DNA of 17,265 bases, from positions 1-17,265 of IMG/VR virus record IMGVR_UViG_3300045988_092498; one strand, given 5' to 3'. The position numbers and the translations under genes were made by a program. Shown here one piece after another: positions 3,982 through 12,412 of this stretch. Numbering within the stretch: the first letter of the stretch is position 1; each line of letters starts with the position of its first letter. The notes beneath the pieces are model-generated. The model did not search any database. It had not been told where the DNA came from and saw only the letters and a list, made by a program, of their open reading frames with translations. The stretch comes from a virus (lineage: Duplodnaviria; Heunggongvirae; Uroviricota; Caudoviricetes).

Positions 3982-4108
3982 TTTAAGTGCCGATATCCGG
4001 CAGCTTGAGAACGCGCTGGCGCGCTGTGCCAGCCAGGTAAAAATGATTAAACACTGTCAGGACGAAAACGATGCTCAAACCCGACAGCCTGCGCAGGGCG
4101 CTGACTGA
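3818..4108 (+). CDS. lysC: Outer-membrane lipoprotein spanin (Rz1-like) LysC, overlapping lysB in another frame
   Basis: ATG at 3818 inside the longer ORF 3701..4108 gives a 96-aa product, MKTKIFAAGTALTCLMLCAGC..., with a signal peptide and lipobox-like LCAGC. It begins inside lysB in a different frame and runs past its stop, then overlaps the R start. Confidence 0.7.
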   Translation: MKTKIFAAGTALTCLMLCAGCTSAPPAPMPVIVHNACPKVSLCPMPGSDPETNGDLSADIRQLENALARCASQVKMIKHCQDENDAQTRQPAQGAD

Positions 4109-4538
4109 TGCCGTCACGGTGCTGAAAACTAACCCCGATATGCTGCGGATATTCGTGGATAACGGGAGTATTGCCTCCACACTGGCGACGTCGCTGTCAT
4201 TCGAAAAGCGTTACACGCTCAACGTGATTGTGACCGACTTTACCGGTGATTTTGACCTGCTCATCGTGCCGGTGCTGGCGTGGCTGCGGGAAAATCAGCC
4301 AGACATCATGACCACCGACGCAGGCCAGAAAAAGGGCTTCACGTTTTATGCAGACATCAACAATGACAGCAGCTTTGATATCAGCATCAGTCTGATGCTG
4401 ACCGAGCGCACGCTGGTCAGTGAGGTGGACGGCGCACTGCATGTGAAGAATGTCCCGGAACCTCCGCCGCCGGAGCCGGTCACCCGCCCGGTGGAGCTTT
4501 ATATCAATGGTGAACTGGTGAGCAAGTGGGATGAATGA
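4071..4538 (+). CDS. R: Tail completion protein R
   Basis: 155-aa ORF, P2 gpR length, in the expected position after the lysis cassette. Confidence 0.8.
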   Translation: MLKPDSLRRALTDAVTVLKTNPDMLRIFVDNGSIASTLATSLSFEKRYTLNVIVTDFTGDFDLLIVPVLAWLRENQPDIMTTDAGQKKGFTFYADINNDSSFDISISLMLTERTLVSEVDGALHVKNVPEPPPPEPVTRPVELYINGELVSKWDE

Positions 4539-4983
4539 GTTTAAGCGTTTTGAAGACCGGCTGGCCGGACTGACTGAATCGCTGTCACCGTCAGGGCGTC
4601 GGCGACTGAGTGCCGAACTGGCGAAACGTCTGCGGCAGAGTCAGCAGCGTCGGGTGATGGCACAGAAAGCCCCGGACGGCACACCCTACGTGCCACGCCA
4701 GCAGCAGAGCGCCAGAAAAAAGACCGGTCGCGTTAAGCGAAAAATGTTTGCGAAACTTATCACCAGTCGTTTTTTGCATATCCGCGCCAGCCCGGAACAG
4801 GCATCAATGGAGTTTTACGGCGGGAAGTCACCGAAAATCGCCAGTGTGCATCAGTTCGGTCTGTCGGAAGAAAACCGGAAAGACGGTAAGAAAATTGATT
4901 ATCCGGCGCGTCCTCTGCTCGGCTTTACCGGTGAGGATGTGCAGATGATTGAAGAGATTATCCTGGCTCACCTTGAGCGTTAG
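4531..4983 (+). CDS. S: Tail completion protein S
   Basis: 150-aa ORF, P2 gpS length, overlapping the R stop by 8 nt (translational coupling). Confidence 0.8.
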   Translation: MNEFKRFEDRLAGLTESLSPSGRRRLSAELAKRLRQSQQRRVMAQKAPDGTPYVPRQQQSARKKTGRVKRKMFAKLITSRFLHIRASPEQASMEFYGGKSPKIASVHQFGLSEENRKDGKKIDYPARPLLGFTGEDVQMIEEIILAHLER

Positions 4984-5013
4984 TTTTATCCAGGCAGAGG
5001 CTGATGCGCAATT

Positions 5014-5048
5014 AAACATTGAGCGGCCGTGCTGGTCGCTCAATGTTT
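5014..5048. terminator. Perfect 12-bp inverted repeat (aaacattgagcg / cgctcaatgttt) with an 11-nt loop, between convergent genes; putative terminator
   Basis: Read directly from the sequence. Lies 30 nt after the S stop (+) and 7 nt after the stop of the reverse-strand cargo gene. A T-run (ggtttttattt) occurs about 15 nt downstream on the + strand, not immediately adjacent. Confidence 0.4.
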
Positions 5049-5054
5049 AGAGGT

Positions 5055-5840
5055 TTATGAGTGGTTTTTATTTGATGCTTTGTATTCTAAAACCTTCTTA
5101 TTGGCGTAAAGGAATTTTGCATATGACAGGAATATAAGCAGACCTGAAATGAAATAAGTTAGGGATATTATTAATAATGTTTTTCTGTGGCTGTTATTAT
5201 CTTTAATCTCCTGACTTAACCATTCGGAGTCCTCCTCGTTTAGCTGTAAGAGCTTATTGCAGGCGATCTCAGGAAGTGTGTCTTTTATAAATACGTTTTG
5301 CAGACTCTTGCAATCGGCAAGGCTATAAGTTTTATTAAATTCAACTGTTTTATTTTTGAAGGATAAAAGAACTTTGTCACTATAAACATAGTACATCATA
5401 TTTTTATATGGTATACCTATGGCATCCCTTACTATAGCGGATTGTTCATTGTGTATGTAACATGCGAAGATAATATAAAGAATTCCGGCCAGGACTGCAC
5501 TCATTGTTTTTGTGATGCATAGCGGTTCTGTTATGTCTCCCCAGAAGCGAGTAAGGAAAAAATCCGATGTTTTTAGTTTTCCATCAATCAGCCCCTGCTG
5601 TATCATTCTCACATCTTCGATGCCTGATACATTGATTCCGTTAAGTGTTTTAAATAGTTGAATGTCGCGCCACTCGCGGTCCAGTCTTTTTAATTTTTTG
5701 TCTGAATATCCAAATTTGAAATAATGTGCAATAAGCCTCATAAGGTTACTTTTACCAAAGCTAAAAAATGCTAATACTGCAAAGACCAAAAGATACAAAA
5801 CGATTAGCTCCCACACATTAGTCACATTATAGCTGACCAT
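5055..5840 (-). CDS. Hypothetical membrane protein, three predicted TM helices; AT-rich cargo gene at the S/V junction (P2 orf30 position)
   Basis: 261-aa reverse-strand ORF, ATG at 5838-5840 preceded by AAGGAGA with a 5-nt spacer. Markedly AT-rich relative to flanking genes. Hydrophobic segments WELIVLYLLVFAVLAFFSF, MSAVLAGILYIIFACYI and TLLIISLTYFISGLLIFLSYA. No recognisable catalytic motif. Confidence 0.65.
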   Translation of the reverse strand: MVSYNVTNVWELIVLYLLVFAVLAFFSFGKSNLMRLIAHYFKFGYSDKKLKRLDREWRDIQLFKTLNGINVSGIEDVRMIQQGLIDGKLKTSDFFLTRFWGDITEPLCITKTMSAVLAGILYIIFACYIHNEQSAIVRDAIGIPYKNMMYYVYSDKVLLSFKNKTVEFNKTYSLADCKSLQNVFIKDTLPEIACNKLLQLNEEDSEWLSQEIKDNNSHRKTLLIISLTYFISGLLIFLSYAKFLYANKKVLEYKASNKNHS

Positions 5841-5855
5841 TACGCTCTCCTTGAA

Positions 5856-5905
5856 TGTTGTCTGGTGGTTCTACAAATGAATCCAGATAGCATAACTTTT
5901 ATATA
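5856..5905 (+). promoter_or_regulatory. Candidate late promoter for the V operon (TGTTGT activator-site-like motif plus TATATT -10-like element)
   Basis: TGTTGTCTGGTGGTTCTACA at 5856-5875, 68 bp upstream of the V start, shares the TGTTGT motif found upstream of FI. P2 late promoters are Ogr-dependent with a TGT-N12-ACA-type element near -55; the match here is partial only. Confidence 0.3.
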
Positions 5906-5923
5906 TTGTGCAATCTCACATGC

Positions 5924-11368: not shown

Positions 11369-12412
11369 TCAACTATCACTCAATAACTCGAGATAATTTG
11401 AGCAATACGACTTTGGAATAAGGTACATAGGTTTCAGTTTATTGAAGGTGCCAATGCTATCGTTTATTCCGAATTGAGCTCCAAAAAAGAAGTCAGGATC
11501 AAGTGACTCTCTGACCGCTAAAGAAAAAAGATTTAATGCATGAGCTAAATTATAGTGCAGTCGAAATAATTCTTTTCTCCAGTGCTCATACATATCATAT
11601 TTCTCATGATATTTATCTTGGTCCATTCTGATTTTCTTCCAACTCATGTCTCTCTTCCAAAAACCATTTATGTTACTTGCAAAGTTCATATTAGTTATAT
11701 GTTCGCAAAGGTAATACGCATGGTTAGCAAGCTCAACCATTGATAAGTCAAGGTTGGGAAGTCGGCCTGGCATTTGGGTCGTTAGAACGGTCTGGCAGGC
11801 CTCATAAAATCCATCAACAACTTCAGATTGCATTGCATTAGCGATAAGATTATCGCTAATGTTATCCCAGGCATGAAGATACATCTTACTTGTGAGGCGA
11901 TCTACAAGGTAGCGCTCTGTTTTGAACTGGTTACGAGTCGATTGCCCACATATATAATTTTTTTGTTCATTGCTCAGCGTTGCAAAAAAACTCTCAAGAA
12001 CCGTAGCACCAATCACCATCGCTTCATTTAAGTTATATTTATTTTTAATTTCGGCGATGGCATTGTTTAGATGTGGTGGGATGCCGCAATATTTATCATT
12101 GACAACATAATAAAACTCTCTGACTGTGGAAATAGAATTCCAATATGAGAAAAGTTTTTCGAAATCAGCCTTCATTTTATCTAGCGATTTCTTTTCATTA
12201 CTAGGCAGGTCCTCTGGAGCGTATACCTGATAGTAAATTCCTGCATCATATACCCATCCATCATTACCTCTGTCACCTATGTTACCATGAGGTTTTACTT
12301 TATCGAATCCGGGACGATAATATGACATAACTTTCGAAAATAAATTTTCATATTCTATTCCGTTACTTTCATGAACTTTAAGTTTAAAGCTCTGGATATA
12401 TCCATCTGACAC
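11369..12412 (-). CDS. Hypothetical protein of unknown family; AT-rich cargo gene at the G/FI junction (P2 Z/fun position); candidate anti-phage determinant
   Basis: 347-aa reverse-strand ORF with GTG start at 12410-12412 preceded by AGGAGG with a 6-nt spacer. Strongly AT-rich and flanked by AT-rich non-coding DNA (277 bp and 458 bp). No TM segments. Motifs noted by eye: GDRGNDG...YYQVY near the N-terminus and RKELFRLH near the C-terminus. Confidence 0.65.
   Translation of the reverse strand: MSDGYIQSFKLKVHESNGIEYENLFSKVMSYYRPGFDKVKPHGNIGDRGNDGWVYDAGIYYQVYAPEDLPSNEKKSLDKMKADFEKLFSYWNSISTVREFYYVVNDKYCGIPPHLNNAIAEIKNKYNLNEAMVIGATVLESFFATLSNEQKNYICGQSTRNQFKTERYLVDRLTSKMYLHAWDNISDNLIANAMQSEVVDGFYEACQTVLTTQMPGRLPNLDLSMVELANHAYYLCEHITNMNFASNINGFWKRDMSWKKIRMDQDKYHEKYDMYEHWRKELFRLHYNLAHALNLFSLAVRESLDPDFFFGAQFGINDSIGTFNKLKPMYLIPKSYCSNYLELLSDS

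What the first reader, a model, noticed from the sequence alone, without database searches (positions are those of the whole stretch)
5055..5840. AT-rich 261-aa three-helix membrane protein inserted between S and V (orf30-equivalent site)
Seen in sequence: a reverse-strand ORF with strikingly low GC and a strong ribosome-binding site (AAGGAGA). It is convergent with the late operon ending at S and divergent from V. The product has three hydrophobic helices (N-terminal, central, C-terminal) separated by two soluble segments of roughly 80-90 aa, and no recognisable enzymatic motif. Established knowledge: P2 carries a non-essential low-GC gene (orf30) at this junction. Inference: a single-gene membrane-acting superinfection-exclusion or abortive-infection protein; the function is unknown.
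Basis: partly seen in the sequence, partly recalled or inferred. Interest (0 to 1): 0.7.

Follow-up and report, generated by a model that had tools for sequence, protein, structure and literature searches.

The report
Phage P2 orf30 membrane-protein gene
This is an allele of orf30, a dispensable gene of phage P2 known since the 1990s; it encodes a three-pass inner-membrane protein whose function is still untested but may be to protect the lysogen from other phages.

Summary
ORF 5055-5840 (-) is real: 261 aa, GC 0.35 against 0.56, a strong RBS and three hydrophobic helices.

It is not merely at the "orf30-equivalent site". It is P2 orf30 itself: 86.6% aa identity to P2 Orf30 (annotated "nonessential"), 100% to other P2 isolates, and a full-length match to PHROG 2407 (unknown function).

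What this analysis adds:
- **Family.** About 25 diverged representatives (18-35% identity, Enterobacterales) keep the same length, three-helix layout and low GC. They are a remote branch of Pfam DUF6216.
- **Position.** Most members with informative context sit in the same S|V slot on the opposite strand.
- **Selection.** All 70 IMG/VR alleles are intact. The soluble loops are under purifying selection (omega 0.24-0.32); the helices evolve near-neutrally.
- **Topology.** Predicted N-out/C-in, with a periplasmic domain carrying a conserved cysteine pair.
- **Retention.** A lone copy survives at a decayed P2 site in Enterobacter cloacae.
- **No known relatives.** No match to defence profiles, SieA, SLATT or any solved fold.

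The best guess is SieA-like exclusion of heterologous phages at the envelope. This rests on analogy only (about 0.35). The gene is already known, so interest is modest.

The parts
5055..5840 (-). orf30 coding sequence (261 aa plus stop); an allele of phage P2 orf30 and a member of PHROG 2407
   Evidence: ORF listing. 86.6% aa identity to P2 Orf30 and 100% to OU784750. phrog_2407 E=4e-140 over the full length.
5846..5852 (-). Shine-Dalgarno sequence AAGGAGA, six nt upstream of the ATG
   Evidence: Read directly from the sequence.
5757..5816 (-). TM1 (aa 9-28), preceded by an uncharged 8-aa N-terminal tail predicted to be periplasmic
   Evidence: Hydropathy peak 2.41. No K or R in the N-tail in any of 26 relatives. 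Most variable segment of the protein, omega about 1.2 with a CI that includes 1.
5523..5756 (-). Loop 1 (aa 29-106): predicted cytoplasmic helical domain with the family motif D-x-Q-L-F-[KR]-x-x-N-G-[IV]-N-V...D-A...G...F-G-x-[IV]-G
   Evidence: Net charge +4.9 across the family. Motif seen in alignment A3. omega 0.32, CI 0.15-0.66. AF2 helices 48-67, 74-86 and 91-94 with pLDDT 85-94.
5457..5522 (-). TM2 (aa 107-128)
   Evidence: Hydropathy peak 1.93. AF2 helix 109-134. 77% of sites vary among alleles.
5181..5456 (-). Loop 2 (aa 129-220): predicted periplasmic alpha/beta domain of four beta-strands and two helices, with the conserved cysteine pair C177 and C194
   Evidence: Net charge -0.3 and a mean of 2.04 Cys per protein. 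C194 invariant and C177 near-invariant. omega 0.24, CI 0.15-0.40. AF2 strands 141-173 and helices 174-179 and 189-198.
5058..5180 (-). TM3 (aa 221-242) and a Lys-rich cytoplasmic tail (aa 243-261) with conserved N247 and K254
   Evidence: Hydropathy peak 2.15. The tail has net charge +1.9 across the family. AF2 shows one continuous helix 202-260.
5014..5048 (.). Bidirectional terminator hairpin between the S stop and the orf30 stop (12-16 bp stem)
   Evidence: RNA fold gives -25.4 kcal/mol on the plus strand and -22.0 on the minus strand. It corresponds to P2's annotated 'putative rho-independent terminator for O operon'.
5855..5882 (+). Late-promoter PV activator (Ogr) binding site, lying inside the 83-bp orf30-V spacer; TGT...ACA at 5856/5859-5875
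   Evidence: Position transferred from the P2 annotation. TGT..ACA match. The CACAACA element is conserved upstream of the orf30 homologue in all eight loci compared. It leaves no room for a canonical orf30 promoter.
4984..5923 (.). The whole 940-bp low-GC cassette (terminator, orf30 and its own version of PV). It replaces a 66-bp S-V spacer found in 'empty-slot' P2-like phages, with breakpoints at the S stop codon and the V start codon.
   Evidence: Alignments to the APEC O1 prophage. GC 0.36.

Best explanation
Identity (about 0.95, shown): this is an allele of phage P2 orf30. It is a functional but dispensable accessory gene carried in a 940-bp AT-rich cassette at the boundary between the O and V late operons.

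Protein architecture (predicted): a three-pass inner-membrane protein.
- A short N-terminal tail in the periplasm.
- A conserved helical domain of about 78 aa in the cytoplasm.
- An alpha/beta domain of about 92 aa in the periplasm, probably stabilised by a disulfide.
- A Lys-rich C-terminal tail in the cytoplasm.

Mechanism (inferred; the confidence of 0.35 refers to this part): the protein is made in the lysogen and acts at the inner membrane as a superinfection-exclusion factor. It would block the passage of incoming phage genomes, or the function of the injection machinery, probably for heterologous phages rather than P2 itself. This is how P22 SieA works from an equivalent genomic position.

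The helices serve mainly as anchors. Specificity would lie in the two conserved soluble domains, which probably bind a conserved host or phage partner.
For: Identity and anatomy:
- Identity to P2 orf30.
- Three-helix layout and topology; conserved cysteine pair in loop 2.
- Confident AF2 model, pLDDT 83 and pTM 0.72.

The gene is maintained by selection:
- 70 of 70 alleles are intact, with 47 distinct proteins.
- omega is 0.24-0.32 in the loops, with confidence intervals below 1.
- The family persists in the same S|V slot and orientation in P2-like phages of E. coli, Yersinia, Sodalis, Gibbsiella and others, at 18-35% identity, while V stays 61-84% identical.

It is not needed for lytic growth:
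- P2's record says 'nonessential'.
- Viable isolates such as pro483 and P24B2, and roughly 950 E. coli prophages, have an empty slot.

It benefits the host rather than the virion:
- A lone intact copy sits beside cyaR at a P2 remnant site in E. cloacae, seen on more than 200 contigs.
- Another copy survives beside a gpR fragment in a degraded prophage.

The analogy to SieA:
- P22 SieA has three predicted transmembrane segments and is an inner-membrane protein.
- Its gene is on the opposite strand, convergent with the last late structural gene.
- SieA exists as three types about 25% identical that share one slot.

Context:
- P2's other two AT-rich moron slots carry anti-phage genes.
- In Gibbsiella the slot also holds a 445-aa DUF4062 protein.
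Against: - No experimental phenotype was found in the searchable literature.
- No homology to SieA (hhalign probability 0.2%).
- No hit to PADLOC models, to solved structures or to viral models.
- No sigma-70-like promoter scoring at least 8/12 upstream. The 83-bp spacer is filled by the Ogr-dependent PV promoter, so expression in the lysogen is unproven.
- E. coli genomes with two orf30 copies (18) match the number expected by chance (about 17.6). This argues against strong exclusion of orf30-bearing P2-like phages.
- From my own knowledge, not checked here: P2 vir mutants plate on P2 lysogens.
- The conserved loops and near-neutral helices are not the signature of an arms race with phage proteins.
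- P2 moron slots can also hold non-defence genes, such as neaT.
Confidence: 0.35

Rival explanations
1. Abortive-infection effector. Orf30 is a dormant membrane-disrupting protein, holin-like or pore-like, that is triggered by infection, depolarises the membrane and kills the cell before the invading phage matures.
For: It is a single-gene membrane protein with the three-helix N-out/C-in topology and charged C-tail of class I holins. Weak promoter signals would suit a toxic product kept at a low level. A UniRef name for one homologue (P0052) reads 'SMODS and SLOG-associating 2TM effector'. P2's other morons include abortive-infection-type systems.
Against: The SLATT name could not be reproduced: no SLATT model matched any of eight members at E<=10. 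The helices are the least conserved part and evolve near-neutrally with no conserved polar face, which is unlike a pore lining. The loops of 78 and 92 aa are far larger than in holins. No sensor or partner gene is consistently adjacent. There is no PADLOC hit.
Confidence: 0.15
2. Lysogenic-conversion or host-fitness factor unrelated to phage defence. Orf30 would be an envelope protein that changes cell-surface or envelope physiology, for example stress tolerance, colonisation, or resistance to colicins or host factors.
For: Retention as a domesticated orphan across E. cloacae. A conserved periplasmic domain with a probable disulfide. Precedent in neaT, an AT-rich opposite-strand gene in a P2-like moron slot that promotes bacteraemia fitness. 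No similarity to any defence family.
Against: The family is tied almost exclusively to one slot of P2-like phages over deep divergence. That fits a function linked to phage biology better than a general fitness gene. There is no enzymatic motif or transporter-like architecture.
Confidence: 0.2
3. Non-essential lytic-cycle helper. Orf30 would be made during P2 development, for example to modulate lysis timing, to stop progeny adsorbing to or injecting into already infected cells, or to assist genome entry or exit at the membrane.
For: It is embedded among the lysis, tail-completion and baseplate genes. Its upstream region overlaps the Ogr-activated PV promoter, so late-phase co-regulation is conceivable. 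Positional conservation across P2-like phages is deep.
Against: It lies on the opposite strand with its own terminator. It is absent from most P2-like prophages and from viable isolates. Lone copies persist after the rest of the prophage has decayed, which a virion- or lysis-linked function would not explain.
Confidence: 0.08
4. No current function. Orf30 would be a selfish or decaying AT-rich insert that merely hitch-hikes in a permissive operon boundary.
For: Overall omega is elevated (0.46) compared with the flanking genes (0.04-0.2). The gene is dispensable. No promoter is detectable.
Against: All 70 of 70 alleles are intact despite 103 variable sites. The loops have omega 0.24-0.32 with confidence intervals below 1. 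Length, architecture and the cysteine pair are kept down to 18% identity. An open frame of this length is very unlikely at this GC (P about 2e-9).
Confidence: 0.03

Closest known systems
Phage P2 Orf30 (AAD03281.1; AF063097 9439-10224) / PHROG 2407
   Same: The same gene: 261 aa, 86.6% aa identity (100% to other P2 isolates), the same S|V slot, the same orientation, the same terminator and PV arrangement, and the same GC of 0.34.
   Different: It is an allelic variant. There are 40 non-synonymous differences from the P2 reference, concentrated in TM1 and TM2. The function of the reference gene is itself unknown; its record says only 'nonessential'.
Pfam PF19723 (DUF6216), a family of unknown function
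   Same: This is a full-length family of about 270 positions. The Sodalis slot-homologue P0023 passes its gathering score (28.9 against 27.3 bits, residues 10-255), and 10 of 26 relatives give sub-threshold hits.
   Different: The window protein itself gives no hit even at E<=10. The link is transitive only. The family carries no functional information, and only one paper mentions it, in passing.
Phage P22 SieA (inner-membrane superinfection-exclusion protein)
   Same: Three predicted transmembrane segments. An opposite-strand gene convergent with the end of the late structural operon and flanked by virion genes. It is expressed independently of the late operon. Several types about 25% identical share one slot. 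This is the best working analogy.
   Different: No detectable homology (hhalign probability 0.2%). SieA is 162 aa with short loops, whereas Orf30 has two folded soluble domains of 78 and 92 aa. sieA has an annotated promoter and orf30 has none recognisable. No exclusion phenotype has been shown for orf30.
P2 lysogenic-conversion morons old, tin and fun(Z), and the defence hotspots of P2-like phages
   Same: AT-rich, dispensable genes transcribed against or apart from the late genes, located at operon or genome-module boundaries of the same phage, with presence/absence polymorphism.
   Different: Those two hotspots turn over hundreds of unrelated cargo genes. The S|V slot is empty, or holds one deep family, or holds two rarer alternatives in E. 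coli (phrog_9373 in 60 genomes and phrog_10503 in 77). Recent hotspot surveys do not list it.
Class I holins (for example lambda S105; topology recalled from my own knowledge)
   Same: Three transmembrane helices, N-out/C-in, and a basic cytoplasmic C-tail.
   Different: Orf30 is 261 aa with large folded loops. It is not in the lysis cassette, which lies upstream on the other strand. Its helix sequences are unconstrained.

Membership tests
P2 Orf30 / PHROG 2407 | Full-length sequence similarity to P2 Orf30 and to the PHROG profile | tested here: met
   86.6% aa identity over 261 of 261 residues to AF063097 orf30. phrog_2407 E=4e-140 covering positions 1-261 of 261.
P2 Orf30 / PHROG 2407 | Located between tail-completion gene S and spike gene V, on the opposite strand, in a low-GC cassette | tested here: met
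   In IMG/VR loci the commonest gene order, W- V- orf30+ S- R-, is seen in 60 of 79 loci, and most of the others are cut by contig ends.
Pfam DUF6216 (PF19723) | HMM score at or above the gathering threshold (27.3 bits) | tested here: not met
   No hit for the window protein at E<=10. The homologue P0023 scores 28.9 bits over its full length, and 10 of 26 relatives hit weakly. The relationship is therefore remote and transitive, not direct membership.
P22 SieA-type superinfection exclusion proteins | Sequence or profile homology to SieA | tested here: not met
   hhalign of the family profile A3 against P22 SieA gave probability 0.2% with 10 aligned columns.
P22 SieA-type superinfection exclusion proteins | Small multi-pass inner-membrane protein encoded on the opposite strand within the virion gene cluster | tested here: met
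   Three predicted transmembrane helices. The gene arrangement compares directly with P22 gene 16 | sieA. Membrane localisation is predicted only.
P22 SieA-type superinfection exclusion proteins | Blocks DNA injection by superinfecting phage | not testable with these tools
   This needs plating, K+ efflux and DNA-entry assays. The only indirect datum is that double-orf30 genomes occur at the chance expectation (18 observed, about 17.6 expected).
Known anti-phage defence systems (PADLOC-DB v2) | Match to any defence-protein HMM | tested here: not met
   No families at E<=10.
SLATT (SMODS and SLOG-associating 2TM effector) | Match to the Pfam or NCBIfam SLATT models | tested here: not met
   The name appears only as a UniRef label on homologue P0052. 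No SLATT model hit P0052, the window protein or six other members at E<=10.
Moron (autonomous accessory cassette in a phage late region) | Composition different from the flanks, lying between operons, with presence/absence polymorphism | tested here: met
   GC 0.36 against 0.56. Exact replacement of a 66-bp spacer. Present in 464 of about 1557 E. coli genomes that carry the junction.
Moron (autonomous accessory cassette in a phage late region) | Own terminator | tested here: met
   Hairpin at 5014-5048, -22 to -25 kcal/mol, six nt after the stop codon. It is annotated as a terminator in P2.
Moron (autonomous accessory cassette in a phage late region) | Own promoter active in the lysogen | tested here: inconclusive
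   No sigma-70-like site on the orf30 strand within about 260 nt upstream, and none scoring at least 8/12 in the spacer. Consensus scans cannot exclude a weak or activator-dependent promoter.
Class I holin | Small (about 70-150 aa), three transmembrane helices with short loops, encoded in the lysis cassette | tested here: not met
   The topology is similar, but the protein is 261 aa with loops of 78 and 92 aa and lies outside the lysis cassette on the opposite strand.

The most novel reading that the evidence does not exclude
PHROG 2407 (remote DUF6216) could be a new, structurally novel family of prophage-encoded inner-membrane exclusion or defence proteins, the P2-lineage counterpart of P22 SieA. 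It would have been resident in one slot of P2-like phages across Enterobacterales. It would be valuable enough to the host to be kept as a lone domesticated gene in Enterobacter cloacae after the prophage decayed.
Probability: 0.3. Interest if true: 0.55.

Novelty: already known. Interest (0 to 1): 0.3.

Why it matters
orf30 is one of the last unassigned genes of the model phage P2. It is carried by about 8.5% of complete E. coli genomes (464 of 5426).

If it is an exclusion or defence protein, it would add a third defence-related locus to P2-like phages. That locus is not listed in current hotspot surveys. It would also add a new membrane-protein fold to the anti-phage repertoire.

The family alignment, the topology model, the conserved cysteine pair and motifs, and the E. 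cloacae orphan give concrete handles for a quick experimental test.

As a genome-scan finding, though, it is a re-discovery of an annotated gene.

Tried and rejected
Searches that found nothing:
- Pfam, NCBIfam and PADLOC scans of the window protein gave no hit.
- The k-mer-indexed homologue search found only relatives at 81% identity or more. Exhaustive HMMER was needed to find the diverged family.
- The first AF2 model, built from a shallow alignment, was unusable (pLDDT 50). The second, built from 26 sequences, was good.
- Rfam found no RNA family in the window.
- Literature searches on orf30, P2 hotspots, DUF6216, PF19723 and Peduoviridae found no functional data.

Ideas tested and dropped:
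- Loop 1 as a membrane-tethered helix-turn-helix. Domain-only profiles for loop 1 and loop 2 against PDB sequences found nothing, with best E values of 0.25 and 0.06 to unrelated proteins.
- Homology to P22 SieA.
- The SLATT label on one homologue could not be reproduced.
- Positive selection in the helices. omega is about 1.2-1.6, but the confidence intervals span 1, so this is better read as near-neutral anchor evolution.

Attempts that failed technically:
A 9-sequence subset worked.
- DNA for further E. cloacae alleles could not be fetched, so dN/dS of the orphan copy was not computed.

Not run:
- The genome contigs and metagenome-contig scans. The context evidence already seemed sufficient for their cost.
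Full report
**1. Observation.**
Its GC is 0.351 (GC3 0.37), against 0.557 for the rest of the window and 0.55-0.59 for the neighbouring genes. The neighbours are P2 tail genes. gpR is at 4071-4538 and gpS at 4531-4983, both upstream and convergent. The spike gene gpV is downstream and divergent (Pfam). By alignment to P2, the true V start is 5924, not the TTG at 5906. An AAGGAGA Shine-Dalgarno sequence lies six nt before the ATG. Hydropathy shows three peaks, at aa 9-27, 107-125 and 221-239, separated by soluble segments of 78 and 92 aa. At this composition an open frame of 261 codons has P of about 2e-9. In 2000 shuffles of the cassette the longest open run was 166 aa, against 271 observed.

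**2. Identity.**
The region is 94.3% identical in DNA to the phage P2 reference (AF063097), where the ORF is annotated 'orf30, Orf30, nonessential'. It is 99.8% identical to other Peduovirus P2 isolates. The protein is 86.6% identical to P2 Orf30, 100% identical to OU784750 and NC_070905, and matches PHROG 2407 ('unknown function') end to end at E=4e-140. So this is orf30 itself, not another gene occupying the 'orf30-equivalent site'. The hairpin at 5014-5048 folds at -25.4 kcal/mol on the plus strand and -22.0 on the minus strand. It corresponds to P2's annotated O-operon terminator, and 5855-5882 corresponds to P2's annotated Ogr-binding site of the PV promoter.

**3. The slot.**
In 5426 complete E. 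coli genomes, 1557 carry the S-V junction and 464 of them carry orf30. All copies are chromosomal and all are annotated 'hypothetical protein'. Most of the rest have an 'empty' 66-bp S-V spacer. Homology between the two forms breaks exactly at the S stop codon and the V start codon. The 940-bp cassette therefore brings its own terminator and its own version of PV. Two rarer alternative cargos occupy the slot in E. coli:
- a 347-aa protein (phrog_9373) in 60 genomes;
- a 246-aa protein (phrog_10503, the type reported in phage R18C) in 77 genomes.

Viable isolates such as pro483 and P24B2 lack the gene, so it is dispensable for lytic growth.

**4. A deeper family.**
The word-indexed protein search found only relatives at 81% identity or more. 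An exhaustive HMMER search of 1.84 billion cluster representatives found 42 hits, 20 of them below 1e-10. About 25 are full-length proteins of 250-270 aa at 18-35% identity. All seven that I tested fall in PHROG 2407. They come from Yersinia, Enterobacter, Pectobacterium, Cronobacter, Gibbsiella, Sodalis, Rahnella and an unnamed Enterobacteriaceae strain, and every source calls them 'hypothetical'. Ten of the 26 aligned members give weak hits to Pfam DUF6216. One, the Sodalis protein P0023, passes the gathering threshold over its full length (28.9 against 27.3 bits). The window protein gives no hit. The family is therefore a remote branch of DUF6216, which has no known function.

**5. Positional conservation.**
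Wherever enough context was available, the diverged homologues lie in the same place.
- Between V and S, on the opposite strand, in P2-like phages: L007, L009, L013-15, L025, L097-99 and L104.
- In the slot with extra cargo: Gibbsiella L023, with a 445-aa DUF4062 protein, and L102.
- As a tandem pair of diverged copies: L022.
- Just upstream of R: L101 and L103.

Against the window, V is 61-84% identical, R 51-78%, S 38-48% and the orf30 homologue 24-35%. Every homologue has GC 0.30-0.38 in loci of GC 0.40-0.57.

Two copies sit outside intact phages. One lies beside a gpR fragment in a decayed prophage (L005). The other is a lone gene between yegQ and yegS in Enterobacter cloacae, seen on more than 200 contigs and mostly intact. 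From its sequence I recognise the upstream gap as the cyaR sRNA, next to which the K-12 P2 remnant lies; this rests on my own knowledge and was not checked against Rfam. Retention after the prophage has decayed points to a benefit for the host.

**6. Selection.**
Seventy of 70 close alleles in IMG/VR are intact 261-codon frames. They give 47 distinct proteins and 103 variable sites. Variation concentrates in TM1 (68% of sites) and TM2 (77%), against 24% in loop 1 and 39% in loop 2. Pairwise Nei-Gojobori estimates over 55 unique alleles, with bootstrap 95% intervals, are:

| Region | omega | 95% interval |
|---|---|---|
| Whole gene | 0.46 | 0.34-0.64 |
| Loop 1 | 0.32 | 0.15-0.66 |
| Loop 2 | 0.24 | 0.15-0.40 |
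| TM1 | 1.19 | spans 1 |
| TM2 | 0.58 | spans 1 |
| TM3 | 1.58 | spans 1 |

The flanking genes have omega 0.04-0.2 at similar dS. The gene is therefore functional. Its soluble domains are constrained, and its helices behave as loosely constrained anchors. There is no significant signal of positive selection.

**7. Architecture.**
Across the 26 members, charge and cysteine content by segment are:

| Segment | Net charge | Other |
|---|---|---|
| N-tail | -0.8 | no K or R |
| Loop 1 | +4.9 | |
| Loop 2 | -0.3 | mean 2.04 Cys |
| C-tail | +1.9 | |

By the positive-inside rule this gives N-out, loop 1 cytoplasmic, loop 2 periplasmic and C-in. C194 is invariant and C177 nearly so, which fits a periplasmic disulfide.

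AF2 with the 26-sequence alignment gives pLDDT 83 and pTM 0.72. The model shows:
- three long helices;
- a small helical cytoplasmic domain carrying the motif D-x-Q-L-F-[KR]-x-x-N-G-[IV]-N-V...D-A...G;
- a periplasmic domain with a four-stranded beta-meander and two helices that carry the two cysteines.

No invariant His, Ser or Glu pattern suggests catalysis.

No solved or predicted structure matches specifically. Profiles of the whole protein or of either loop find nothing among PDB sequences.

**8. Expression signals.**
The RBS is strong. No sigma-70-like site was found on the orf30 strand within about 260 nt upstream, and none scoring at least 8/12 in the spacer. The 83-bp spacer is essentially the PV promoter. 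Its Ogr-site core, CACAACA, is conserved upstream of the homologue in all eight loci compared. Whether orf30 is expressed in lysogens is therefore open. The P2 record annotates no promoter for it.

**9. Mechanism.**
The closest functional analogy is P22 SieA.
- It is an inner-membrane protein with three predicted transmembrane segments.
- Its gene is on the opposite strand, convergent with the last late gene.
- It exists as three types about 25% identical in one slot.
- It blocks DNA injection.

Orf30 shares these anatomical and population features but no sequence homology (hhalign probability 0.2%). P2's two other AT-rich slots hold anti-phage genes. On this basis I favour an envelope-level exclusion function at a confidence of about 0.35. 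The target is probably heterologous phages, for two reasons. First, genomes with two orf30 copies (18) occur at the frequency expected by chance (about 247 x 0.267^2 = 17.6). Second, from my own knowledge, P2 vir plates on P2 lysogens.

The rivals are:
- an abortive-infection membrane effector (0.15). A UniRef 'SLATT' label on one homologue could not be reproduced, and the unconstrained helices argue against a pore;
- a host-fitness envelope factor like neaT (0.2);
- a dispensable lytic-cycle helper (0.08);
- no function (0.03).

**10. Novelty and verdict.**
The entity is already known as P2 orf30, PHROG 2407. The literature I could search holds no functional study. The recent surveys of P2 hotspots that I read discuss the old/tin and Z/fun loci, and one adds a tail-cI locus, but none mentions the S|V slot. 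As far as I can tell, the new elements here are:
- the deep positional conservation of the family;
- the topology and disulfide model;
- the domain-specific purifying selection;
- the tandem and orphan copies.

These sharpen a testable hypothesis but do not establish function. Interest is modest (0.3).

Noticed in passing
window 11369-12412 (-): A second low-GC island (GC about 0.34) lies in the G|FI slot, the equivalent of P2's Z/fun locus. It holds a 347-aa ORF whose N-terminus (aa 16-110) matches the PADLOC LmuA model, the Lamassu effector, at E=3e-8. The protein is 79% identical to hypothetical proteins of Klebsiella P2-like phages. It is a likely defence gene.
   Followed up: partly
L024 5001-5765 (Enterobacter cloacae chromosome): A lone orf30-family gene (P0031, GC 0.36 in a locus of GC 0.56) sits between yegQ and yegS with no other phage genes nearby. 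I recognised the adjacent sequence as cyaR by eye, and the link to the K-12 P2-remnant locus is from my own knowledge. The gene is seen on more than 200 contigs and is mostly intact, which looks like domestication.
   Followed up: partly
L022 5001-5771 and 5900-6658: Two diverged orf30-family genes (P0027 and P0046) lie in tandem in the V|S slot of a truncated P2-like prophage.
   Followed up: no
L023 5877-7214: In a Gibbsiella P2-like prophage the slot holds the orf30 homologue plus a 445-aa DUF4062 protein (phrog_9489). That protein gave no PADLOC hit.
   Followed up: partly
L003 2687-3730 (-) and L004 1683-2423 (+): Two alternative cargos occupy the same S|V slot in E. coli. One is a 347-aa protein (phrog_9373, 60 genomes). 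The other is a 246-aa protein (phrog_10503, 77 genomes) with weak sub-threshold HNH and Endonuclease I hints. Both are of unknown function.
   Followed up: partly
window 4984-5923 compared with L002 685-750: The S-V intergenic region exists as two forms whose homology breaks exactly at the S stop codon and the V ATG. The PV promoter sequence therefore differs completely between phages with and without orf30.
   Followed up: partly
L010 66-752: In a short metagenomic contig, an orf30-family gene (P0017) lies divergently next to a DsbA-family gene. This is notable given the conserved periplasmic cysteine pair, but it may be coincidence.
   Followed up: no
all orf30-family loci (L005-L025): Every family member has GC 0.30-0.38 whatever the GC of its locus (0.40-0.57), even at 18-35% protein identity. 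The AT-richness has not drifted towards the host value, which suggests it is itself maintained or that alleles are re-imported from an AT-rich pool.
   Followed up: no
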